64,000 bases of DNA, taken from positions 36,022,001 through 36,086,000 of the forward strand of contig NC_090332.1 in the NCBI RefSeq assembly GCF_035084215.1, written 5' to 3'. The notes beneath the pieces were generated by a model. The model was given only the letters and a program-made list of their open reading frames with translations. It made no database searches and was not told the DNA's origin. Source of the DNA: Heptranchias perlo (Eukaryota). Positions 34,125-58,440 of the stretch are shown here, one piece after another. The position numbers were made by a program, and so were the translations under genes. Position 1 is the first letter of the stretch, and every line of letters starts with the position of its first letter.

Positions 34125-35690
34125 GCATGATTTTTAGATGGAGCCAGGAAGAGCAGGAAGAGAGTGGGGGGGAGGGGGGGGGCGGAGGTGGGGGAGATTT
34201 TCGGGCTCAAAACCTGGAAGTAAAATTCACGGGTTGGAATGTGCAATCGCGACCTAATTGAATGATTACAATTTTACTTCCAGGTTTCCCGTGCGACGGA
34301 CAGCCAGATTGGCAGGCTGGGTGCCTGTCGGGTGGGAAAGCTAGCAACTGGGGAACGAATGCCAGGTAAGTCTGACATCGCGAGGCTGGGGGGCGGGGGT
34401 CGGTCAACGAATGGGGGTTCGGGCATCATGGAGGCTGGGGACATCGGGGGGCTGTGGACATCGGATGCTGGAGACATCGGAGGCTGTGGACATTGGAGGT
34501 TGTGGACATCGGAGGCTGTGGACATCGGAGGAGGGCAATGGACATCAGACGATGGAGACATCGGGGGAGGTGTGGACATCAGAGGCTGTGGACATCGGAG
34601 GAGGGCTGTAGACATTGGAGGCTGTAGACATTGGAGGCTGTGGACATTGGAGGCTGTGGTCATCGGGGGAGGGCTGTGGACATCGGACGCTGGAGACATC
34701 GGGGGGGAGTTGTGGACATCGGAGGCTGTGGACATTGGAGGAGGGCTGTGGACATCGGAGGCTGGAGACATTGGAGGAGGCATGTGGACGTCGGAGGCTG
34801 TGGACATCGGAGGAGGGTTGTGGACATCGGAGGCTGGAGACATTGGAGGAAGGTTGTGGACGTCGGAGGCTGTGGACATCGGAGGAGGGCTGTGGACATC
34901 GGAGGCTGGAGACATTGGAGGAAGGTTGTGGACGTCGGAGGCTGTGGACATCGGAGGAGGGTTGTGGACATCGGATGCTGGAGACATCGGGGGGGGGTTG
35001 TGGACATCGGATGCTGGAGACATCGGAGGCTGTGGTCATTGGAGGTTGTGGACATCGGAGGAGGGATGTAGACATCGGAGGCTGTGGACATTGGAGGAGG
35101 GCTGTAGACGTCGGAGGCTGTGGACATCGGAGGAGGGATGTGGACATCGGAGGCTGGAGACATCGGGGGGGGCTGTGGACATCGGAGGCTGTGGACATCG
35201 GAGGCTGGAGACATTGGAGGAGGGCTGTGGACATCGGAGGCTGGAGACATCGGGGGGGCTGTGGACATCGGAGGCTGTGGACATTGGAGGAGGGCTGTGG
35301 ACATCGGAGGCTGGAGACATCGGGGGGGCTGTGGACATCGGAGGCTGTGGACATCGGAGGCTGGAGACATTGGAGGAAGGCTTGAGACACCAGGAAGGTC
35401 AGAGACATCGGGAGGGTTGGAGACATCGCGGGGAGGGTTGGGCATCGGGGGGGGGGTCTAGGTCATCGGGACGGGTCTGACATCGGGGGGGAGGGGTGAC
35501 CGGCCGTTGGTGGGGGACCGATCACGGCAGGCAAGCTTGTTGGGCCCGAAGGAAATACTCCTGCTCCTCCTGGCCCACAAGCAGTGCAATAAAGGGACTT
35601 AACAAATGAACTGGCCCTTCTTGCCTCCTTTTACCTGGCGAGATTCATGAGCCCCAGGAAAGGTGTTCTGGAGGCGTTAAATTTAAATAG
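34125..35690 (+). mobile_element. Harbinger-type MITE with an expanded internal minisatellite
   Basis: Starts GGCATGATT like the 55870 element and shares CTCCTGCTCCTCCTGGCCCACAAGCAGTGCAATAAAGG with it; right end unclear. Confidence 0.7.
34430..35430 (+). repeat. G-rich minisatellite, core GGAGGCTGTGGACATC (16 bp) with 19-20 bp variants
   Basis: Dozens of copies of ggaggctg(t/g)(g/a)gacat(c/t) and ggaggagggctgtggacatc; gives repetitive ORFs in most frames. Confidence 0.95.
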
Positions 35691-43925: not shown

Positions 43926-45624
43926 AGGGCTCCAGATTGGAATAGAGCAGATTTTAAAATGATTGGTGTTAGTTAGCAGAGGTGAGGTAGAAAGAGAAAT
44001 AGGCACACAGGTCTGTAGATCAACAATGGAATAATTTTAAAAAGGAAATTGCAGAGTTGCAGAATAATTATATGCCTTTAAAAAAAGTCTACTTCAAGCT
44101 TCAGAAGGTCGTAGATAAATAAAGAGGTTAGAAACAAACCATAAGGAATATGGAGATTATAGGTATGATAAAAGCAAGAGAAAATATGATAAAATAAAAT
44201 AAAAGATTAACATAAGAACATAAGAAATAGGAGCAGGAGTAGGCCATACGGCCCCTCGAGCCTGCTCCACCATTCAATCAGATCATGGCTGATCTTCGAC
44301 CTCAACTCCACTTTCCTGCCCAATCTCCATATCCCTTGATTTTCCTAGAGTCCAAAAATCTATCTAGCTCTGTCTTGAACATATTCAACTACTCAGCATC
44401 CACAGCCCTCTGGGGTAGAGAAATCCAAAGATTCACAACCCTGTGTGTGAAGAAATTCCTCCTCATCTCAGTCTTGAATGGCCGACCCCTTATCCTGCAA
44501 CTATGCCCCCTAGTTCTAGACTCTCTAGCCAAGGGAAACAATCTTTCAGCATCTGCTCTGTCAAGCCCCGTCATAATCTTATACGTTTCAATGAGATCAC
44601 CTCTCATTCTTCTAAACTCCAGAGAGTATAGGACCATTCAACTCAATCTCTTTGCATCGGACAACCCTCTCATCCCAGGAATTAATTTAGTGAACATACA
44701 TTACACCGCCTCTAAGGCAAGTATATCCTTCCTTAGATAAGGAGACCAAAACTGTGCTCAGTAATCCAGGTGAGGTCTCAGTAAGCCCTGTACAACTGCA
44801 GTAAGACTTCCCTACTCTTGTACTCCAACCTCCTTGCAATAAAGGCCAACATGCCATTTGCTTTCCTAATTGCTTGCTGTACCTGCATACTAACTTTTTG
44901 TGTTTCTTGTACGAGGACACCCAAGTCTCTCTGAACACCAACATTTAATAGTTGCTCACCATTCAATAAATATTCTGTTTTTCTATTCTTCCTACTAAAG
45001 TGAATAACCTCACATTTCCCCACATTATACTCCATCTGCCACCTTCTTGCCCACTATCTTAATCTGTCGATATACCTTTGCAGACTCTTTGGGGCCGATT
45101 TTCGGATGAAGGAGCGGGTGTGTTGTGGGGGGGGTGTCCGAAAATCGCTGAAATCCCGAGCAGGTTTGGAGCCCGGCTCCAACCCGCTGACTTCCAGGTT
45201 CCCCAGTGAAGCGTCCAGGTGCGCACGCACACCTCCCGGATGCGGAAGTCCCACCGGCAATTAAAGCCGGCAGGATGATAATTTGCACAGTTTGTCCAAT
45301 AGTTAAAGTACTTCAACTACTTGATTGACTCGACATTTTGGCAGGGATGAGATATTGAAGAATCCTCAGCGTGTTTCTCGTGCTTTGGGAAACACTCCCT
45401 GTTGCAACAGACGTGTTTCAGCCAGCAGCCAGTGGGAGATGCTAATGCTTATTTGACAGGTGGGGAGAAAACGTCATTTATTGCAGCGGGGCACTCTGTC
45501 ACTTCAGACAAAGTTTTGGCTGCAAGACCTTTGTGTTTTTACTCAAATTTCTCACTTTCCACCCAAAACTCTGCTGTTCAAACATATTTAAATACTTTGC
45601 GGACCCCCTCAACCTCACACCGTC

Positions 45625-46835
45625 ATGGCTGCATTCACCACTACATCTGAGGACGAGCAATATCACCAGCCTCGCCAGGCACGGCGTCCACCTCCGCCAC
45701 GTGGAGCTCCACACCCAGTGCTGCGCCACAGGCACCTGCACAAGAGCACCGAGGGCAACAACAGAGAGAGCGACGTCGCAGGAGGCAGTACTCTCGCAAC
45801 AGGGTCTACAGACCGAGGCTCAGCTTCCTGGACCTCTCTGAGGAGCAGTGCATATACGGAGGCGCAGAGTCAGTCGCCAGGCAAGGCGTCCACCTCCGCC
45901 ACGTGGAGCTCCACACCCAGTGCTGCGCCACAGGCACCTGCACAAGAGCACCGAGGGCAACAACAGAGAGAGCGACGTCGCAGGAGGCAGTACTCTCGCA
46001 ACAGGGTCTACAGACCGAGGCTCAGCTTCCTGGACCTCTCTGAGGAGCAGTGCAAACGGAGGCGCAGAGTCAGTCGCCAGCTAGTTGCAGACATTTGCAG
46101 CCTCCTTCATGCCGAGCTGGTCCCGGCTGGGCCGAGCAGCATCTCCTTACCTGTTGCTGTCAAAGTCACCACTGCCCTCAACTTCTTCACCTCTGGATCA
46201 TTCCAGGGTGCCACCGAGGACATTGCCGTGGTCTCTCAGTCGTCTGCACACAAGTACATAAGGCAGGTCACTGACAGCTTGTTTTGCAGGGTTTAGCACT
46301 ACGTCAACTTACTCATGGATGACCTCAGCCAGACAGAGAGGGCTGTGGCTGGCTTCCCACGGGTCCAGTGTGTAATCGATTGCACCCATATAGCAATGCG
46401 AGCACCTCCACACCAGCCAGGACTGTTTGTCAACAAGAAGGGCTATCACTCCATCAACACTCAGCTCGTTTGTGACCACCGCAAGAGATTCCTTCATGTG
46501 TGTGCCAGATACCCTGGCAGCTGCCACGATTCCTTCATCTTCTGGAATTCCAACATCCCGCCTCTCTTCCATGTACCGAACACCAGTAAGGGCTGGCTCC
46601 TCGGGGACAAGGGATACCCTCTGCACACGTGGCTCATGACACCTCTGAGGAACCCCATCACTGAGCAACAGCGTCGCTATAACAGAGTGGGATGCATTAT
46701 AGTTGTCTGTTGTGCCCTGCATAACACGGCACAACAGAGAGGGGTGATGCTTGAGGACACCCCATCCACATCTGCCGCCCACATTGAGGAGGAGGTGGAG
46801 GAGGAGGAGCAACCCATGGGCAGAACAGTGGCTCA
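45625..46835 (+). pseudogene. Harbinger DDE transposase with an internal duplication and deletions
   Basis: KVTTALNFFTSGSFQ, GFPRVQCVIDCTH, YPGSCHDS, WLLGDKGYP, VCCALHN; the segment carrying the catalytic Glu is missing (YN|RVGCII). Confidence 0.9.
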
Positions 46836-48587
46836 CCGTGAGGGCTCCTCCAAAGACTCCTCCACCTGCACCAGTGCAGGGGCAGACTCAGCCACCTGGA
46901 GAGCAGGTAGCATTGCGAGTACTGGTTGAGAGGGGGGCAACCGGTGAGACATGGGAGCGCTTTGACTGGCGTCCCCACTTCCATGTCCCCTTTCACCATC
47001 ATCTCTCCCCTGGGCCAGGCCCACATCACTCCTACACGCTGATGGGCGACAGTTTGGAGGACATGGGTGATCCTTTTAAGGCCCGTGCTAGTGTATCTGC
47101 CTGCCTGTTTATGGCGGCAGAATGTTGTTTACCCTGAGGCTGAACGGCTGTTGTCAGGGCCTGAATTTTCTCATTTGTGAGCCACGCTTGAAGCTCCACG
47201 GAGGCTAGCATTCCCTCCATCGCAGACATTCCCGCACTTACCCGCGACAGTATGTCAGAGATGCCCTCACATCTCTGTGACACTATCTGAGAGATGCCCT
47301 CACGTCCCAGTGACAGTATCTCAGAGATGCCCTCCCTTACCTGTGCCACCATTCCACTCATGCAGGAGTTGGACTCCTCCATCCTCTGCGCTATTGTGGA
47401 GAGTGCACGTGGCACCTGTTCCAGCACCTCGCAAATGTGCTGCTGCCCCTCGATCATTCTCCTTTTAAATGATTGCTCCCAGGGTTCAGCATCTGTGTCC
47501 AGCTGAGCAGAGCCTGGACAGGAATGCTCCCACTGACGCGGACTCTCCACAGCTGCCCCTGCCACCAGTGTCTGCTCGTGCTCACATGTATGTGGTAACT
47601 CACCATGTGTGACCCCAACTAACTGCGGACTATCTGCGCTGGTGGATGGCTCGCTCAGATGTGACAGTGCACCCTCAGAGGCCAGCAGATCCTCTGAGGA
47701 ATTGCCCTCTGCCGTCACAGCGGTCGCTGAAGGCCCTGTAGGAGAACAGAAGGCAATATTCAGATGTGTCATGTTGCGATGAGCATACTGAGGTGCTGAA
47801 GATGGCAAGGCATGTTAACATCAATTCATATTGTGTGTGATGAATGTTAAAGTTCTGTCACCAGACGTTTGTCGGGTGCTCCGACGGACAGGCACTCAAG
47901 GGTGCGGCTCAGCTCCAGCGCCTCTTGCTCCGCGTCTGTGAGGACGACAATCTGTAGCGGCCCCCCTCAGAACCTTGCCCTCTCCCGTGCATTGTAGGCT
48001 CTCTGCTCCTATAAGTGGAGAAAGCACAGACGAGTGAGTGAGTGATGGTGACGTGGCCAACCACTGAGTGCATTGGGCTTGGATGCGGCTGACTGTGAAA
48101 GAGATGCATCAGAGGGTGAGTATGAGACAGAGCTATGAGATTGTATGAGGATTGGGTTGAGTGGTAGTGGTGGGTTGAGTAATGGGGAGGTGAGGAAGTG
48201 CTGAGGAAGTGCAGGCAAGTTGAGGATGAGCTTTAAGTGGGTGTGAGGACTGATGTGATAGAGTAGTGTTGGCATTGCAGAATGAGCTGGGGGTGGGGGT
48301 GGTGATGTGGAAGACGGAATATAGGAGAATGAGTAAGTGTACTCACTTTGGCTGACCTAGTTAGGTCATTGAAGCGCTTCCTGCACTGGATCCAGGTGCG
48401 GGAGATGTTGCTGCTGCTAGTGACCTCCTCTACCACCTCGAGCCAGGCCTTCTTGGTGGCAGAGTCAGGCCACTTCCTCCCATCCACCGAGTAGAAGACA
48501 TCCCTCCTCCTCCTCACCCCATCCAGTAACACCTGGAGTGAGGCATCGCAAAATCTAGGAGCAGTCTTTCCCCTGTGCTGCTCCATT
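46836..48587 (-). pseudogene. Harbinger Myb/SANT-like gene, spliced
   Basis: [21 protein letters not shown]...AWLEV...RTWIQCRKRFNDLTRSAK|gtgagt in exon 1; later exons at about 48008-47870 and 47736-46840. Confidence 0.85.
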
Positions 48588-50879
48588 GTGCTGTGTGGGT
48601 GTTTGCTCCAGGAACAGCCATTGGAGGACTGGCCCTTTACATAGAGCTCCTCCAGCTGACAGCCTGTGATGCACGTGCGCAGTCCGCCCGCTGCACAGCT
48701 TTCGGACGGCAAACCCGGAAGTTAAGTGGCTCCAATTGACCCGCGATTGCGTGGGAAATGGACAGATTTTATTTGGCGGGTCACCCACGCACCCATTCGC
48801 ACCTTCCCCCCACCCCCCGCTGCCATCCCACCTACCCGTTAATATCAAGGCCTTTTTGTCCTCCTCACAGCTTACTTTCCCACCTAGCTTTGTATCATCA
48901 GCAAACTTGGATACATTACTCTCGGTCCCTTCATCTAAGTCATTAATATAGATTGTAAATAGCTGAGGCCCAAGCACCGATCCTTGTGGCACCCCATTAG
49001 TTACAGCCTGCCAACCTGAAAATGGCCCATTTATCCCTACTCTCTGTTTTCTTTCTGTTAGCCAATCCTATATCCCTGCTAACATATTATCCCCAACGCC
49101 ACGAGCCCTTACCTTGTGTAACAGCCTTTTATGCGGCACCTTATCGAATGCCTTTTGAAAACCAAAAAAACTACATCCACTGGTTCCCCATTATTCACCC
49201 TGCTAGTTACATCCTCAAAAAACTCTAATAAATTTGTTGAACACGATTTCCCTTTCATAAAAACATGTTGACTCTGCCTAATCATATTATGATTTTCTAA
49301 GTGCCCTTTTACACTTCCTTAATAATGGATTCCAGCATCTTCCCAATGACTGATGTCAGGCTAACTGGCCAATAGTTCCCTGCTTTCTCTCCCTCCTTTT
49401 TTAAATAGCGGGGTAACATTTGCTACTTTCCAATCCACTGGGACCGTTCCAGAATCTAGAGAATTTTGGAAGATCATAACCAATGCATCCACTATCTCTG
49501 CAGCTGCCTCTTTTAGAACCCTAGGATGTAAGCCATCAGGTCCAGAGGATTTGGCGGCTTTTAGTCCCATTAGTTTGTCCAGTACTTTTTCTCTACTGAT
49601 ATTAATTGTTTTAAGTTCCTCACTCGCATTTACCCCTTGGTTCCCCACTATTTTTGGCATGCTTTTTGTACCTTCTACTGTGAAGACAGATACAAAATAT
49701 TTGTTTAATGCTCCTGCCATTTCCTGATTCCCCATTATAATATTTCCTGTCTCAGCCTCTCAGGGACCAATGTTTACTTTTGTTACTCTCTTCCTTTTTA
49801 CATACTTGTAGAAGCTCTTTTAATTCATTTTTATATTTCTTGCTAGTTTACTTTCATATTCTATTTTCTCCCTTTTTATCAATTTTTTAGTCGTTCTTTG
49901 TTGGTTTCTAAAACTCTCCCAATCCCTTGGCTTATTACTCTTCTTGGCAACATTATAGGCCTTTTCTTTCAATCTAATACTCTCCTTAACTTCTTTAGTT
50001 AGCCACAGGTGGATCATTTTTCCCGTGGAGTTTTCATTTCTCAATGGAATGTATATTTGTTGAGAGTATTGAAATATTTCTTTAAATGTTTGCCATTGCT
50101 TTTCAACTGTCAAACCCTTTAATTTAATTTCCCAATCTACCTTTGACAACTCATCCCTCATACCTATGTAAATGGCTTAATTTAAGTTTAAGACTCTAGT
50201 TTCTGACTTAAGTACGTTACTTTCAAACTCAATGCGAAATTCTATTATATTATGATCACTCTTCTCCAGAGGATCTTTTACTGTGAGATTACTAATTAAC
50301 CCTATCTCATTACATAATATACAAGATCTAAAATAGCCTGTTCCTTGTTTGGTTCCATGACTTATTACTCTAGGAAACCATCTTGAATACATTCCATGAA
50401 CTCGTCCTCCAAACTACCTTTGCCAATTTGATTTGCCCAGTCTATATGCAGATTAAAGTCCCCCATTGTGACTGCATTTCCTTTGTTACACGCTCCTATT
50501 ATTTCATGATTAATACTCTGTCCAATGGTATTGCGACCATTTGGGGGCATATAAACTACTCCCTCCAGTGTTTTCTTCCCCTTGTTATTTCTAATTTCCA
50601 CCCATATTGATTCTACTTCCTGATCTTCCGAGTCAAGATCGTTTCTCACCACTGTCCTTATGTCATCCTTTATTATTAAGGCTACACCCCCTCCTTTTCT
50701 ATTCTGCCTGTCTTTTCTAAATGTCATGTACCCTCGAATATTTAGTTCCCAACCTTGGTCATTTTGGATCCATGTCTCTGTAATGGCTATCAGGCCAAAT
50801 CCATTTATCTCTATTTTTTTTTTTTATTCGTTCACGGGATGTGGGCGTCGCTGGCAAGGCCGGCATTTATTGCCCATCC

Positions 50880-53177
50880 CTAATTGCCCTCGAGAAGGTG
50901 GTGGTGAGCCGCCTTCTTGAACCGCTGCAGTCCGTGTGGTGACGGTTCTCCCACAGTGCTGTTAGGAAGGGAGTTCCATGATTTTGACCCAGCGACAATG
51001 AAGGAACGGCGATATATTTCCAAGTCGGGATGGTGTGTGACTTGGAGGGGAACGTGCAGGTGGTGTTGTTCCCATGCGCCTGCTGCCCTTGTCCTTCTAG
51101 GTGGTAGAGGTCGCGGGTTTGGGAGGTGCTGTCGAAGAAGCCTTGGCGAGTTGCTGCAGTGCATCCTGTGGATGGTGCACACTGCAGCCACAGTGCGCCA
51201 GTGGTGAAGGGAGTGAATGTTTAGGGTGGTGGATGGGGTGCCAATCAAGCGGGCTGCTTTATCTTGGATGGTGTCGAGCTTCTTGAGTGTTGTTGGAGCT
51301 GCACTCATCCAGGCAAGTGGAGAGTATTCCATCACACTCCTGACTTGTGCCTTGTAGATGGTGGAAAGGCTTTGGGGAGTCAGGAGGTGAGTCACTCGCC
51401 GCAGAATACCCAGCCTCTGACCTGCTCTTGTAGCCACAGTATTTATGTGGCTGGTCCAGTTAAGTTTCTGGTCAATGGTGACCCCCAGCATGTTGATGGT
51501 GGGGGATTCGGCGATGGTAATGCCGTTGAATGTCAAGGGGAGGTGGTTAGACTCTCTCTTGTTGGAGATGGTCATTGCCTGGCACTTATCTGGCGCGAAT
51601 GTTACTTGCCACTTATGAGCCCAAGCCTGGATGTTGTCCAGGTCTTGCTGCATGCAGGCTCGGACTGCTTCATTATATGAGGGGTTGCAAATGGAACTGA
51701 ACACTGTGCAGTCATCAGCGAACATTCCCATTTCTGACCTTATGATGGAGTGAAGGTCATTGATGAAGCAGCTGAAGATGGTTGGGCCTAGGACACTGCC
51801 CTGAGGAACTTCTGCAGCAATGCCCTGGGGCTGAGATGATTGGCCTCCAACAACCACTACCATCTTCCTTTGTGCTAGGTATGACTCCAGCCACTGGAGA
51901 GTTTTCCCCCTGATTTCCATGGACTTCAATTTTACTAGGGCTCCTTGGTGCCACACTCGGTCAAATGCTGCCTTGATGTCAAGGGCAGTCACTCTCACCT
52001 CACCTCTGGAATTCAGCTCTTTTGTCCATGTTTGGACCAAGGCTGTAATGAGGTCTGGAGCCGAGTGGTCCTGGCGGAACCCAAACTGAGCATCGGTGAG
52101 CAGGTTATTGGTAAGTAAGTGCCGCTTGATAGCACTGTCGACGACACCTTCCATCACTTTGCTGATGATTGAGAGTAGACTGATGGGGCGGTAATTGGCC
52201 GGATTGGATTTGTCCTGCTTTTTGTGGACAGGACATACCTGGGCAATTTTCCACATTGTCGGGTGGATGCCAGTGTTGTAGCTGTACTGGAACAGCTTGG
52301 CTAGAGGCGCAGCTAGTTCTGGAGCACAAGACTTCAGCACTACAGCTGGGATGTTGTCGGGGCCCATAGCCTTTGCTGTATCCAGTGCACTCAGCCGTTT
52401 CTTGATATCACATGGAGTGAATCGAATTGGCCGAAGACTGGCTTCCGTGATGGTGGGGATATTGGGAGGAGGCTGAGATGGATTATCCACTCGGCACTTC
52501 TGGCTGAAGATGGTTGCAAACGCTTCAGCCTTGTCTTTTGCACTCACGTGCTGGACTCCGCCATCATTGAGAATGGGGATGTTTGCAGAGCCTCCTCCTC
52601 CCGTTAGTTGTTTAATTGTCCACCACCATTCACGACTGGATGTGGCAGGACTGCAGAGCTTTGATCTGATCCGTTGGTTGTGGAATCGCTTTGCTCTATC
52701 TATAGCATGTTGCTTCCGCTGTTTAGCATGCATGTAGTCCTGAGTTGTAGCTTCACCAGGTTGGCACCTCATTTTTCGGTACGCCTGGTGCTGCTCCTGG
52801 CATGCTCTTCTGCACTCCTCATTGAACCAGGGTTGATCCCCTGGCTTGTTGGTAATGGTAGAGTGAGGAATATGCCAGACCATGAGGTTACAGATTGTGC
52901 TGGAATACAATTCTGCTGCTGCTGATGGCCCACAGCGCCTCATGGATGCCCAGTTTTGAGCTGCTAGATCCATTCTGAATCTATCCCATTTAGCACGGTG
53001 GTAGTGCCACACACCACGTTGGATGGTGTCCTCAGTGCGAAGACGGGATTTCATCTCCACGAGGACTGTGCGGTGGTCACTCCTACCAATACTGTCATGG
53101 ACAGATGCATTTGCGACAGGTAGATTGGTGAGGACGAGGTCAAGTAAGTTTTTCCCTCGTGTTGGTTCCCTCACCAC
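50880..53177 (-). CDS. Reverse transcriptase ORF (EN C-terminus, RT, C-terminal domain), 765 codons without a stop
   Basis: [57 protein letters not shown]. Confidence 0.92.
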   Translation of the reverse strand: MVREPTRGKNLLDLVLTNLPVANASVHDSIGRSDHRTVLVEMKSRLRTEDTIQRGVWHYHRAKWDRFRMDLAAQNWASMRRCGPSAAAELYSSTICNLMVWHIPHSTITNKPGDQPWFNEECRRACQEQHQAYRKMRCQPGEATTQDYMHAKQRKQHAIDRAKRFHNQRIRSKLCSPATSSREWWWTIKQLTGGGGSANIPILNDGGVQHVSAKDKAEAFATIFSQKCRVDNPSQPPPNIPTITEASLRPIRFTPCDIKKRLSALDTAKAMGPDNIPAVVLKSCAPELAAPLAKLFQYSYNTGIHPTMWKIAQVCPVHKKQDKSNPANYRPISLLSIISKVMEGVVDSAIKRHLLTNNLLTDAQFGFRQDHSAPDLITALVQTWTKELNSRGEVRVTALDIKAAFDRVWHQGALVKLKSMEIRGKTLQWLESYLAQRKMVVVVGGQSSQPQGIAAEVPQGSVLGPTIFSCFINDLHSIIRSEMGMFADDCTVFSSICNPSYNEAVRACMQQDLDNIQAWAHKWQVTFAPDKCQAMTISNKRESNHLPLTFNGITIAESPTINMLGVTIDQKLNWTSHINTVATRAGQRLGILRRVTHLLTPQSLSTIYKAQVRSVMEYSPLAWMSAAPTTLKKLDTIQDKAARLIGTPSTTLNIHSLHHWRTVAAVCTIHRMHCSNSPRLLRQHLPNPRPLPPRRTRAAGAWEQHHLHVPLQVTHHPDLEIYRRSFIVAGSKSWNSLPNSTVGEPSPHGLQRFKKAAHHHLLEGN

Positions 53178-53763
53178 CTGCCGCAGGCTCGTTCAGTAGT
53201 GGTGCTACCGAGCCACTCTTGGTGATGGACATTGAAGTCCCCCACCCAGAGTACATTTTGTGCCCTTGCTACCCTCAGTGCTTCCTCCAAGTGGTGCTCA
53301 ACATGGAGGAGGACTGATTCATCAGCTGAGGGAGGACGGTAGGTGGTAATCAGCAGGAGGTTTCCTTGCCCATGTTTGACCTGATGCCATGAGATTTCAT
53401 GGGGTCCAGAGTCAATGTTGAGGACTCCCAGGGCCACTCCCTCCTGACTGTATATCACTGTACCGCCACCTCTGGTGGGTCTGTCCTGCCGGTGAGACAG
53501 GACATACCCAGGGATGGTGATGGAAGAGTCTGGGACGTTGGCTGAAAGATATGATTCTGTGAGTATGGCTATGTCAGGCTGTTGCTTGACTCGTCTGTGG
53601 GACAGCTCTCCCAATTTTGGCACAAGTCCCCAGATGTTAGTAAGGAGGACCTTGCAGGGTCGACTGGGCTTGGTGTTTTGCCGTTGTCGTGTCTGGTGCC
53701 TAGTGGTCCGATGCCGGGTGGTCCGTCCGGTTTTATTCTTATTATGACTTTTCGTAGCGAGAT
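53171..53763 (-). CDS. APE-type endonuclease N-terminal part of the same ORF, separated by one frameshifting lesion near 53187
   Basis: TNIWG, LTES, RQDRPTRGGG, YRPP, GDFNVHH. The frame is open from a TAA at about 53766 and contains no ATG. Confidence 0.85.
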
Positions 53764-54019
53764 TTTACAACTGAGTGGCTTGCTCGGCCATTTCAGAGGG
53801 CAATTAAGAATCAACCACATTGCTGTGGGTCTGGAGTCACATATAGGCCAGACCGGGTAAGGGCGGCAGGCTTCCTTCCCTAAAGGACATTAGTGAACCA
53901 GATGGGTTTTTACGACAATCCGGTAGTTTCATGGCCATCATTACTGATACTAGTATTTTAATTCCAGATTTTATTTTTATTAATTGAATTTAATTAATTA
54001 ATTGAATTTAAATTCGCCA

Positions 54020-54113
54020 GCTGCCGTGGCGGGATTTGAACTCATGACTCTGGATTTTAGTCCAGGCCTCTGGATTACTAGCCCAGTAACATAACCACTA
54101 TGCTACCGTACCC
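54020..54113 (-). promoter_or_regulatory. tRNA-Thr(AGT)-like head with a Pol III type 2 internal promoter
   Basis: A box TAGCATAGTGG (54105-54095), anticodon arm CTGGG-CTAGTAA-TCCAG, second arm CTGGA-CTAAAA-TCCAG, B box GAGTTCAAATCC (54043-54032). Confidence 0.85.
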
Positions 54114-54359
54114 TGCAATTAATTCATCTATCTTGTTACGAATGCTCCGTGCATTCAGATAAAGAACTTTTAATTTTGACATTTTACCATTTTTTCCTGC
54201 TTTGACCTTACTTCTTGTTGCACTATTATCGATAAACTCTCTGTCCCTTCTTGCCACACTCTGCTTATCTTTACCCAAGTCACTACACCGTTCTATTGTC
54301 TTAACTTTTCTCATTAGATTTCTAAATTTCCCCTCACCTGACCCCTTCCCCCCTCCTTA

Positions 54360-54720: not shown

Positions 54721-55629
54721 CATCATGCCCCAAGCCCTTTTGCAACAAAAAATGGCACAGCTTTAAGGGCTGCCAGCTGTCCTTAATAGCAGCTGACACT
54801 AGATAATGTGGCTCCCGACCCTCGTGGCATTCCCAGCATGTCGTGCACTAAGCGTTGGGATTATTTAAATGAGCTAACCTCACATTATCGGGCAAGGTCA
54901 GCTCTGTGGGGCATACAATGCTTGAGGAGTCCCAGCAGTGCTGCATTAGGACTACATTATCAGCCCTATCATGTAATTGCTTCTCGATTTGCTCTTTTTT
55001 ATACAACCGTTCAGGTGCTACTCAAAGTGGAAGATTACAGTGAGAATTGAAAATGTTAAGCTATTGCTCACAATAAAAGCATCAACTCTGCCTATTCCGA
55101 TGAATTAAATTTTCTGTTTCAATTGATGAGTAAAGTCCTCAATATCAATGTCAGGATCAAAAATTCACAGGCCAAAATTTAAATACTGCATAGTAAGATT
55201 ACAGCACATAACTGATTTCCATAGTTCCTAACTTTATTTTCTAAACTGTGATGCGAATTTTGATGAGGGATATCAGTGTAGAAAAATTGAGCTTTTACTT
55301 ACTTCTGCACCAGTGTAATGTTTCCAGCCACCTTTAAGTGAAGCTGACAATTATTTTCATATGAAGTCAAATTATGTGCTGCCTTCTAACTATGGCAGTC
55401 CTCTGAGAAAAGAAAGCCTTTTTCCCTGGGTGAAATCCAAAGGCGAGTCTCAGTGTATTTAACCTCATAACAGTGTCTCAGTGTATTGTGAAATCACTGT
55501 GAGGACTATAGTGGAATATCACTGCCCAAAGTGTTTGATGCAATTTTTCCCTCATTGATTTAGTTTACAATGATTACTAATTATTTCTGTACTGTTAGGT
55601 CTCAGTCCATAAGAGCTGTTGAGCTGTTT

Positions 55630-55869
55630 CTGTATAATAGCCTAGTGGTTCTGGTACTGGACCAATAATCCATAGGTCATGAATTCAAATCCTACAATAG
55701 CAAGTTGTGAAATTGAATTTAATAAATCGGGTAATTTGTGGGCTAGCACCAGAAAATGACCATTTGTTGGATTGTCATAAAAACTTAATAGGCTCATTAA
55801 TGTTCTTTAGGGAAGGGGACACACCTCCCCTACCTAGTCTGGCCTATATCTGACTCCAATCCCACACTA
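55630..55869 (+). mobile_element. SINE-like copy of the tRNA head and 5' UTR of the 50817-54113 element
   Basis: tagcctagtgg (A box), gaattcaaatcc (B box), ggattgtcataaaaac...ctttagggaagg...tctggcctatatctgactcca, colinear with the reverse complement of 54105-53825; cut by a MITE. Confidence 0.8.
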
Positions 55870-56859
55870 GGGCATGATTCCCACTCGGAGCCGGGAACCC
55901 AGCGCGTGAGCAGATGTTCACATGGGGGACCCGGAAATCAAGTGAGTGCGTCACAATCTGCGATCACAACTCAATTGGAGGTAATTATTTATGTTTCTGG
56001 GTCTCAGAGACTTCAGAGGAGGGGGGGTCGGAAACATCGGGAGGGGAGGGGTCGGAGACATCGCGGAAGAGGGGGGTCGGAGACATCGCGGAGGAAGGGG
56101 CTTCAGTGACATCACGGTGGAGAGGGGTCGGAGACAATGCGGGGGGGGGGGGGGTTCGGAGAAATCGTGGAGGAGGGGAGGTCGGAGAAATTGCGGAGGA
56201 GGGGGGTTCGGTGACATCACAGAGAGGAGAAGGGTCGGAGACATTGCGGAGAGGAGAAAGGTCGGAGACATCGCGGGGGGGGGGGGGGGGGGGTCGGAGC
56301 CATTGTGGAGCAGGGGGGCTCGGTGACATCGAAGGAGAGGGGTTGGAGACATCAGAGGAGAGGGGTCAGTGACATCACAAGAGGGGGGTCGTCTGTGGGG
56401 GTGGTCTACCATGGGGGGTCTCAGCCATCGGTGGAGGGGTCTACCATCGGAGGGGGGAGGGGTTGGCTGATCGCCCCAGGTGAGTTTGTTGGGCCTGGAT
56501 GAAGCACTCTTGCTCCTTCTGGCCCACAAGCAGTGCAATAAAGGCACTCACCTCATGGACCAGCCCTTCTCGCCTCCTCTCGCCTGGCAAGAATCGGAAG
56601 CGATGGGAAATCTGTGCAGATAAGGTTAAATACGTTTTACATTTATAATCCACAAAAAATTAAGTGCCTCAACTATCGCAATGAGATACATTGCCCCTTT
56701 AACAATCCGCCCTCCGGCATTAAGCAGGGATGGGAATTCCGGGTTTTGGATTTCGCAAACATAGAAGTTGGAGCCAGGTTGCAGTCCCACTTTAAAGGTC
56801 TGTTAGTTTTACCTCCCACTCGCCCCAACCCACACATTTTTTGGGGTTAAAATTACCCC
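55870..56859 (+). mobile_element. Harbinger-type MITE with a G-rich ggagacatcg repeat array
   Basis: CTA|GGGCATGATT...AATTACCCC|CTA target duplication; shared conserved block with 34125. Confidence 0.8.
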
Positions 56860-57295
56860 CTATGTGCTTGATTTATGAGAGGGTTGGGGGGGCGTTAAAT
56901 TGGCAAAAATCTGAAACCCGACCCCAACCCACCGTGAACGCGCCTACTTCCCGTTTAACCACGGCGGGTTTGGAGGCGTTCGAGTAACCCGCACTGGAGA
57001 GGCGGCAAAGTGATTAGAATATTTAAATGAGGCTCCTTTCATGAGATTTTAGCAGTGATTTGAAATCAACGCCTCCTGCTAGGGTTTTCCGGGGTTCGGG
57101 AAACTCAGCAGTAAAACAGAGGCGAAATTGAATTTCACTTCATGGGGTTGGTTAAAGGTCAGGTGTCTTGATATGAATAAAGGATCAGTGCTCTCAGCTA
57201 CGTTCTCGGTTCCCTCTGGGGAACGGTTGGTGACAGTACTTGTTGTGAGAGACTTATTTGTACAGTTTGGAGGTGTTCACACAGAGAACCTCAGG

Positions 57296-58440
57296 ATGGG
57301 TAGCACCATGGCTGCTTTAGATTGGATTTCGGACAAGGAAGACAATCAGCATCATCACCAGAAAGGACGTATTGTGGAGGGAGCTGCAGGTGGACAACAG
57401 AGAGGGGAGCAATATAGGGGTCGAGTTCGCAGGAGGCACTACCCAGGTAACAGGGTCTATAGACAGAGGCTGAGCTTCCTTGACCTCTCGGAGGAGCAGT
57501 GCTTCCGAAGGCTGAGATTGTCACATCAGGTGGCCGCAGACATCTGCAGCATCCAAAAGACCTGCTGCCTGCTGGACCTGGTGGCCACGCATTACCAGTG
57601 GCTGTGAAAGTCACCACTGCCCTCAATTTGTTTGCCTCTGGTTCCTTCCAGGGCACTACCAGAGGCATATCGAGGGTCTCTCAGTTGCCTGCACATAAAT
57701 GCATACGGCAAGTGACAGATGGATTGTTTGCCAAGGCTGGGAATTATGTAAACTTCCCCTGTGATGACAATAGCCAGAATGAGGGGAACTCGGATTCGCG
57801 TCTCTGGCTGGCTTCCCACAGGTACAGGATGCCATCAACTGCACACATGTGGCAATCTGAACACTGCCAGATCAACCAGGAGCATTCGTTAACCACAAGG
57901 GATTTCATTCCATCAATGTTCAGCTGATCTGCAACCACAAGGAAAGGTTCATGCAGATCTGTGCTAGATTCCCTGGGAGCTGCCATGAAGCTCTCGTACT
58001 GCAGCAGTCCAACATCCCCGACCTGTTCGTACCTGGAACCATCCTTAAGGGGTGGCTGCTAGGTGACTAAGGATACCTCCTTCAAACTCGGTTGATGACA
58101 CCTCTGAGGAACCCCACCAATGAACCCCAAGAGCGCTACCATGCGAGCCATATGACAATTTGATCTGTCATTGAGCAAGCCATCAGCATGCTCAAGATGC
58201 ACTTCAGGTGCCTGGACAAGTCTGGAGGTGCCCTTCAGTACTCACCAGCGAGGGTCTCTAGCGCAGCAGTGAGGACTAGAGGTGGAGGAGGAACAAATCG
58301 CTCACCACGCTTCATCTAAATGAGGATACCAATGGAGGTGGAGGACAAGGAGGAGGAAGATGACGATGGAGCCCCCAAAGCCAGACCAGTGGATCACATT
58401 GCTGCTCTGGGATGCCCTAATAGCTCAAAGGTTCAATTAG
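57296..58440 (+). pseudogene. Harbinger DDE transposase, multiple frameshifts and stops
   Basis: RVYRQRLSFLDLSEEQC, KVTTALNLFASGSFQ, FPGSCHE, GWLLGD*GY, IEQAISMLKMHFRCLD. Confidence 0.88.

What the first reader, a model, noticed from the sequence alone, without database searches (positions are those of the whole stretch)
53171..53820. EN-RT frame has no AUG; an overlapping upstream ORF lies one frame away
Seen: the endonuclease frame is open from a TAA at about 53766 through ...PSRPCKVLLTNIWGLVPKLGEL... and has no Met in the whole EN portion; the ORF track start at 53623 is a GTG downstream of the first conserved Asn. An AUG-initiated 83-codon ORF (53820-53569) overlaps it, with EN in the -1 frame, but I see no canonical slippery heptamer. 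Inference: translation starts by a non-AUG or IRES-like route or by frameshifting, as an uncapped Pol III transcript would need. A copy-specific 1-bp indel is the simple alternative.
Basis: partly seen in the sequence, partly recalled or inferred. Interest (0 to 1): 0.7.

Follow-up and report, generated by a model that had tools for sequence, protein, structure and literature searches.

The report
Shark retrotransposon lacking a start codon
A young, abundant shark jumping gene begins with a tRNA-like promoter and keeps an intact protein frame with no normal start codon, so it probably recruits ribosomes in an unusual, virus-like way that can be tested directly.

Summary
The stretch is the 5' end of a 3.3-kb Zenon (CR1-group) LINE. 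57 of 58 other copies have no Met before the conserved Asn; 24 of 150 protein hits keep a 973-aa open frame, with the first Met after the endonuclease. Published consensuses of five other elasmobranchs show no in-frame AUG in their visible 400 nt (read by eye). The 1-bp-indel idea is refuted; this copy's own lesion is a 37-bp deletion at 53186. The 83-codon uORF is not conserved: it is 76 or 83 codons, uses the eighth AUG, and has no slippery site. Copies start at a tRNA head with A/B boxes and lack T4 runs (P about 0.01; 0.006-0.09 by null), suggesting an uncapped Pol III mRNA. Just upstream of the frame is a conserved hairpin with an anticodon-like loop (CU-AGC-AA), followed after a variable linker by a conserved in-frame GCU, like dicistrovirus PKI. 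Best reading: AUG-independent, structure-directed initiation (0.5); AUG plus frameshift or reinitiation 0.25. No translation was tested.

The parts
50814..54113 (-). Whole Zenon (CR1-group) LINE copy, 3.3 kb, single EN-RT frame, poly-A tail, inserted without target duplication into a CR1-type endonuclease
   Evidence: 5' end matches SquAca_Zenon-1 of PMC13343379 supplement (by eye)
54030..54113 (-). tRNA-derived head; A box 54105-54095, B box 54041-54033; 5' end of the element
   Evidence: weak Rfam tRNA match 54105-54050, 18.7 bits, E 0.53; similarity among copies ends at 54113; 31 of 60 loci start exactly there, 42 of 60 within 5 nt (the window is counted twice); loose ends at 54113 in runs X14 and X18; box consensus recalled
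53771..53915 (-). Conserved central block, shared with a SINE-like deletion family and five other elasmobranchs; contains the distal AUG at 53820
   Evidence: folds no better than shuffles (z -0.74)
53771..53796 (-). Hairpin with 7-nt anticodon-like loop 53786-53780 (C-U/G-AGC-AA); candidate tRNA mimic
   Evidence: pair 53791:53775 is A.C here, G-C in the SINE (G in 28 of 30), A-U in stingray
53756..53758 (-). Conserved GCU in the EN frame, complementary to loop AGC, after an 11-12-nt variable linker; proposed frame-setting codon
   Evidence: in frame with the Asn and open in 62 of 63 parsed young copies (7 of 70 not parsed)
53569..53820 (-). AUG-initiated uORF of the finding (83 codons here, 76 in many copies); probably incidental
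   Evidence: no Pfam hit; no homologue for 53889-53740
53734..53736 (-). ATA here; ATG (uORF frame, overlapping Asn-Glu codons of the EN frame) in five other elasmobranchs
   Evidence: 6154 ATA versus 50 ATG exact pattern hits in the own genome
53639..53755 (-). Basic leader in the EN frame (13 K+R in 42 aa), folded into a stem 53728-53644
   Evidence: z -2.06; young-versus-older substitutions at 53683, 53651, 53642 are synonymous in this frame
53171..53764 (-). Endonuclease frame without Met; N43, E70, Y142, D176, N178, D221, D242 invariant in 16 aligned proteins
53185..53187 (-). Site of a private 37-bp deletion that breaks EN from RT in this copy
50880..53192 (-). Reverse transcriptase frame, 770 aa
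   Evidence: RVT_1 E 2.4e-37

Best explanation
The element is an autonomous Zenon LINE whose 5' end is a SINE-type tRNA promoter. Pol III makes an uncapped 3.3-kb RNA (inferred). Its structured 5' region places the ribosome directly in the EN frame just after the TAA at 53765, without AUG, giving a roughly 970-aa basic leader-EN-RT protein (inferred). The most specific version: the hairpin loop AGC pairs with GCU 53758-53756 as an anticodon:codon mimic, and translation starts at the next codon, as in dicistrovirus PKI (about 0.3 of the 0.5). Shown: family-wide lack of AUG, intact frame under purifying selection, fixed 5' end, lack of T4 runs. Not shown: Pol III use, the pseudoknot, the start site.
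For: No in-frame AUG in 57 of 58 other copies. First Met at residue 250 in 13 of 15 intact copies, 204 and 287 in the others. EN is translated: 7 synonymous versus 1 non-synonymous young-versus-older majority differences in 53700-53186, leaving out a CpG polymorphism at 53694; 10 of 16 listed differences in other species over 53441-53671 fall on third positions (counted by hand, 24 rows not shown). Nine AUGs lie upstream of the Asn, against 5' scanning. No T4 run in 3284 nt against a null mean of 4.4, P0 0.009; none in 11 of 15 intact copies; the flanking CR1 has 8 in 2215 nt. GCU is kept while the linker varies in all five other species and in loose-end consensuses of X14 and X18. GCU is in the EN frame in four of the five (21, 21, 21, 18 nt to the Asn-Glu codons). 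Related proteins have basic leaders that begin with Met at a similar place. A 3-bp anticodon loop can drive an IGR IRES weakly (PMC3517527 passages).
Against: No covariation between loop AGC and GCU: 97 of the first 100 loop-mutant hits are uncompensated, though such copies decay neutrally. The SquAca_Zenon-1 consensus has 20 nt, not 21, from GCU to the Asn-Glu codons. An older class with GCT-TAA has 363 exact hits against 1114 for its in-frame sister and puts the distal AUG in the EN frame instead. Rfam finds no IRES family. The block and hairpin fold no better than shuffles (z -0.74, -0.76). The linker is 11-12 nt from the stem, against 6-10 nt reported for dicistroviruses. The motif was spotted after the fact (rough chance about 5%). 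With the element's own codon usage the T4 absence has P 0.06-0.09, and T-poor relative L177, which has an AUG, has only one T4 run.
Confidence: 0.5

Rival explanations
1. Translation starts at an AUG in the uORF frame (53736 in most species, 53820 here) and reaches EN by a -1 shift, or by stop and AUG-independent backward reinitiation.
For: Every species examined has an AUG in that frame: the proximal one in five species; here it is ATA but the distal frame is open to the Asn in 54 of 63 parsed young copies. It also fits the dogfish consensus and the GCT-TAA class. The older A7 class has an A-AAA-AAA heptamer in that frame (motif).
Against: No slippery heptamer in the young family. The proximal AUG follows simply from Asn-Glu codons and was lost in the dominant family (6154 versus 50). 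The three fixed leader changes are synonymous in the EN frame and non-synonymous in the AUG frame. The distal AUG is the 8th AUG and is shared with non-coding SINEs; the uORF stop is polymorphic.
Confidence: 0.25
2. Conventional Met-tRNAi initiation at a near-cognate codon in the EN frame (ACG 53755, or AAG/AGG 53740 helped by the stem 12 nt downstream) after internal entry.
For: ACG in fair context in the young family; leader stem z -2.06; AAG or AGG at the equivalent place in four of five other species.
Against: ACG is ACA or AAA in older classes and in four other species; AAG and AGG are very poor starts (recalled).
Confidence: 0.14
3. AUG-less copies do not make EN themselves: they are moved in trans by rare AUG-in-frame copies, or an AUG is supplied by spliced host Pol II read-through.
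For: AUG-in-frame copies exist: the GCT-TAA class and L076, L078, L080. The machinery clearly works in trans on SINE derivatives.
Against: The AUG-less lineage shows purifying selection on EN and is the youngest, 0.3-2.3% from its majority against 2.7-4.8% for the AUG-in-frame class. A fixed 5' end argues for its own promoter.
Confidence: 0.1
4. A copy-specific 1-bp indel removed an in-frame AUG.
For: The copy does carry a private deletion, but at 53186.
Against: 57 of 58 other copies share the arrangement, 29 of them found with a query that lacks the AUG region; other species share it too.
Confidence: 0.01

Closest known systems
Zenon (CR1-Zenon) LINEs of elasmobranchs, PMC13343379
   Same: No ORF1, APE plus RT, poly-A tail, about 3.3 kb; the first 400 nt of SquAca_Zenon-1 closely match the window.
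   Different: The passages searched hold no mention of tRNA, start codon or methionine; hagfish and coelacanth Zenon consensuses do not show this head in their first 400 nt.
Dicistrovirus IGR (type 6) IRES, PKI domain
   Same: Hairpin with an anticodon-like loop, a variable linker, a complementary codon in the frame of an AUG-less ORF, and an upstream block of about 150 nt.
   Different: Only 3-4 possible pairs, no covariation shown, no Rfam match, PKII/PKIII, SLIV and L1.1 not identified; it lies in a vertebrate retrotransposon.
R2, L1Tc and RTE elements with HDV-like ribozyme leaders
   Same: Uncapped non-LTR RNA thought to be translated by an IRES-like 5' structure (PMC6765202, PMC7650587 passages).
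   Different: Here the 5' end is a tRNA-type promoter; Rfam found no ribozyme.
RTE-1_DAn and relatives; bipartite or internally deleted SINE/SIDE elements
   Same: A LINE with a tRNA-like sequence is mentioned in PMC5786205; short derivatives join a LINE's 5' and 3' ends, as here.
   Different: Different clade; nothing on translation in the passages read.
Human L1 ORF2 and SART1 ORF2 (recalled, not retrieved; one search found nothing)
   Same: Unconventional start of the EN-RT frame.
   Different: Those depend on termination of a real ORF1 on a Pol II mRNA; there is no ORF1 here.

Membership tests
Zenon LINE | Single ORF with APE endonuclease and RT, no ORF1 | tested here: met
   973-aa frame; Pfam
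Zenon LINE | Poly-A tail | tested here: met
Zenon LINE | Close identity to published Zenon consensus | tested here: met
   first 400 nt of SquAca_Zenon-1 and four others compared by eye
Zenon LINE | RT phylogeny with named reference elements | not tested
   supplement cells are cut at 400 characters; no named RT references were on hand
Pol III (SINE-type) transcription unit | A and B boxes with the 5' end about 9 nt before the A box | tested here: met
   box consensus recalled
Pol III (SINE-type) transcription unit | No internal T4 terminator | tested here: met
   0 observed; P0 0.009, 0.006-0.09
Pol III (SINE-type) transcription unit | Pol III occupancy or 5'-triphosphate RNA | not testable with these tools
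   only contigs were available for RNA runs
Type 6 (IGR) IRES | PKI anticodon:codon mimic in frame with the ORF | tested here: inconclusive
   complementarity and frame conserved; no covariation; two exceptions
Type 6 (IGR) IRES | Match to curated IRES covariance models; PKII/PKIII core | tested here: not met
   only tRNA found at E<=1 over 53500-54300; no triple pseudoknot could be drawn with support
Type 6 (IGR) IRES | Factor-independent ribosome binding and non-AUG start | not testable with these tools
   needs toeprinting and reporters
-1 programmed frameshift cassette | X XXY YYZ heptamer with a structure 5-9 nt downstream | tested here: not met
   the leader stem starts 2 nt after the best partial site
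MetaSINE central domain | Similarity to the Meta-domain | tested here: inconclusive
   bivalve Meta sequences share only a short stretch (part 1 of 4, by eye); the label was recalled and is not used

The most novel reading that the evidence does not exclude
An active vertebrate LINE, transcribed whole by Pol III from a SINE-type head, starts its EN-RT protein with a tRNA-anticodon:codon mimic like the dicistrovirus IGR IRES. The same block, kept in its SINE derivatives, would be a ribosome-binding module, giving a function for a conserved SINE body and a cellular counterpart of factorless initiation.
Probability: 0.25. Interest if true: 0.92.

Novelty: new variant of a known kind. Interest (0 to 1): 0.7.

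Why it matters
LINEs are normally Pol II units and SINEs non-coding Pol III units. This family joins a SINE head to an intact, selected, very recently active EN-RT frame with no AUG, and the layout recurs across sharks and rays. It makes three open questions testable with a 480-nt leader: whether a long Pol III RNA can be translated, whether factorless IRES initiation exists outside viruses (PMC12221177 says its origin is unknown), and what conserved SINE bodies do (PMC5499810 calls their conservation unexplained).

Tried and rejected
Copy-specific indel: rejected. ACG 53755 as conserved start: not conserved. The 50 ATG copies as an ancestral subfamily: they are heterogeneous and 0.8% of the total, close to what back-mutation would give; the ancestral state rests on other species. 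In-frame leader indels as proof of coding: weak, as most remove 15-nt or 3-nt repeat units. 'Meta-domain' and 'RTEX' labels: recalled, then dropped. Covariation of loop and codon in the own genome: none. Searches for the block outside sharks: one chance hit in metagenomes, four chance hits and then none in viral contigs, none in GTDB contigs, none in 80 distant CR1-group loci by nhmmer, no protein homologue, no Zenon relative in viral contigs. Run X22 laid no reads and X21 only 20. No earlier findings of this scan. PMC3308841 was not held. Met-free EN as a selected trait: 2 of 15 homologues also have none. Expression was not shown.

Full report
What is there. The finding lies at the 5' end of a 3.3-kb element on the minus strand, 54113 to about 50814, inserted into the endonuclease of a CR1-type LINE. 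It has an endonuclease frame (53764-53171) and an RT frame (53192-50880) and ends in AATAAA plus A's. The own genome is 3.25 Gb; the 421-nt query gave 1588 candidates and the 40 scored were 97-100% identical. A near-identical stretch of the protein is embedded in a gene model that NCBI names for a shark (P0033). PMC13343379 (passages; supplement rows cut at 400 nt) describes Zenon elements in elasmobranchs with no ORF1 and a poly-A tail, and its SquAca_Zenon-1 start matches the window closely by eye. I file the element as Zenon; no RT tree with named references was made.

Observation. Every coordinate is right. The missing AUG is a family trait: 28 of 29 copies found by DNA and 29 of 29 found by a protein query that lacks the AUG region have no Met before the conserved Asn. 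24 of 150 hits have a 973-aa stop-to-stop frame; in 15 of these fetched, the first Met is residue 250 in 13, and 204 and 287 in the other two. The window copy's own lesion is a 37-bp deletion at about 53186. In the five other species the visible 400 nt show no in-frame AUG after the shared ATG-GCC-TAG; only the stingray and SquAca-3 rows reach the Asn, and stingray shows the same -1 offset (translated by hand). The unseen remainder of those supplement rows bears on this claim.

The endonuclease is made. Catalytic-type residues are invariant in a 16-protein alignment. Between the young family (0.3-2.3% from its majority) and older classes, differences in 53700-53186 are 7 synonymous to 1 non-synonymous, leaving out a CpG polymorphism. 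In two other organisms 10 of 16 listed differences fall on third positions (24 rows not shown). So an AUG-less start is needed.

The uORF. It is 76 codons in 20 of 29 copies, and its stop column is T24/G31/C3. Its AUG is the eighth of nine upstream of the Asn, and there is no slippery heptamer. The AUG lies in a block also carried by a SINE-like family that joins the 5' end, up to about GCTA, to the last 110 nt of the LINE (539 pattern hits; 30 examined). In stingray, whale shark and dogfish that frame is closed early. All five other species have a second AUG in the same frame at the place of 53736, overlapping Asn-Glu codons of the EN frame; here it is ATA in 6154 hits against 50 ATG. That every species keeps some AUG in this frame is the main support for the frameshift rival. 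Against it, the three fixed leader substitutions are silent only in the EN frame, and the EN-frame leader is basic like those of Met-initiated relatives.

Promoter. Similarity among copies stops at 54113, 31 of 60 loci begin exactly there, and contigs of two other organisms break off at the same base. An A box starts 9 nt in and a B box follows (consensus recalled; weak Rfam tRNA hit). The sense strand has no run of four T's in 3284 nt (local shuffle mean 4.4, P0 0.009; codon-aware nulls 0.006-0.09), while distant CR1-group frames have 7-46, apart from T-poor L177 with 1. This favours Pol III and an uncapped RNA but does not prove it.

Candidate start signal. Just before the TAA lies a hairpin, 53796-53771, with the loop CU-AGC-AA. 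One stem pair is G-C in the SINE, A-U in stingray and A.C here. After an 11-12-nt linker that differs in every species comes an invariant GCUA. This GCU is in the EN frame in 62 of 63 parsed young copies and in four of five other species. That is the layout of the dicistrovirus PKI domain, where an anticodon-like loop pairs with a codon beyond a variable loop and translation starts at the next codon (PMC3517527, PMC12221177, passages). Against it: no covariation, no Rfam IRES match, unremarkable folding energy, a 20-nt spacing in the dogfish consensus, and an older class of 363 hits with a stop right after GCT and the distal AUG in frame. It is a lead, not a membership claim.

Known and new. 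Uncapped R2 and L1Tc RNAs are thought to use IRES-like leaders (PMC6765202, PMC7650587, passages), and a tRNA-like sequence in an RTE LINE is noted in PMC5786205 (part 2 and passages). Also read as passages: PMC4824008 (plus supplement part 1 of 4), PMC11481361, PMC5499810, PMC4982230. L1 ORF2 and SART1 are recalled only. Searches listed no paper on a tRNA-headed, AUG-less Zenon; subscription journals and Repbase were not searched.

Verdict. Observation confirmed, indel refuted, uORF probably incidental. A known LINE clade with an undescribed SINE-type head and non-canonical start: new variant of a known kind, interest 0.7.

Noticed in passing
CTAG sites in the element, e.g. window 53785, 53702, 53592 (- strand): In 73 young copies the T of sense-strand CTAG is changed in 83 of 520 observations (16%; to G, C or A) against 0.5% for other T's, and in 39 of 282 (14%) in 58 older copies, so it does not grow with age. 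The A is changed in 35 of 635, never together with the T. Looks like an error or lesion made at insertion; unexplained.
   Followed up: partly
L106-L135: SINE-like internal-deletion family: tRNA head plus central block joined to the last 110 nt or so of the Zenon LINE; 539 exact pattern hits.
   Followed up: partly
L136-L155: Older class with one extra T after GCT (363 hits) that brings the AUG at 53820 into the EN frame; whether it was autonomous is open.
   Followed up: partly
window 55620-55870 (+): Degenerate copy of the same head and central block, cut before the hairpin.
   Followed up: no
window 45592-46929 and 57083-58070 (+), 48233-48721 (-): Frames that look like Harbinger-type transposase and Myb/SANT-like pieces (by eye, labels recalled), with a 202-bp tandem duplication at 45672-46080.
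   Followed up: no
L061-L080 flanks: Insertions show no clear target-site duplication; L078 has flanks that are inverted repeats of each other.
   Followed up: no
L176-L255: GTDB bacterial and archaeal assemblies (e.g. Sedimenticola, Thiodiazotropha MAGs) hold many CR1-group LINE contigs, probably host contamination.
   Followed up: no
window 34430-35382 and 56016-56391: GC-skewed minisatellite arrays with a GACATCG-type core.
   Followed up: no
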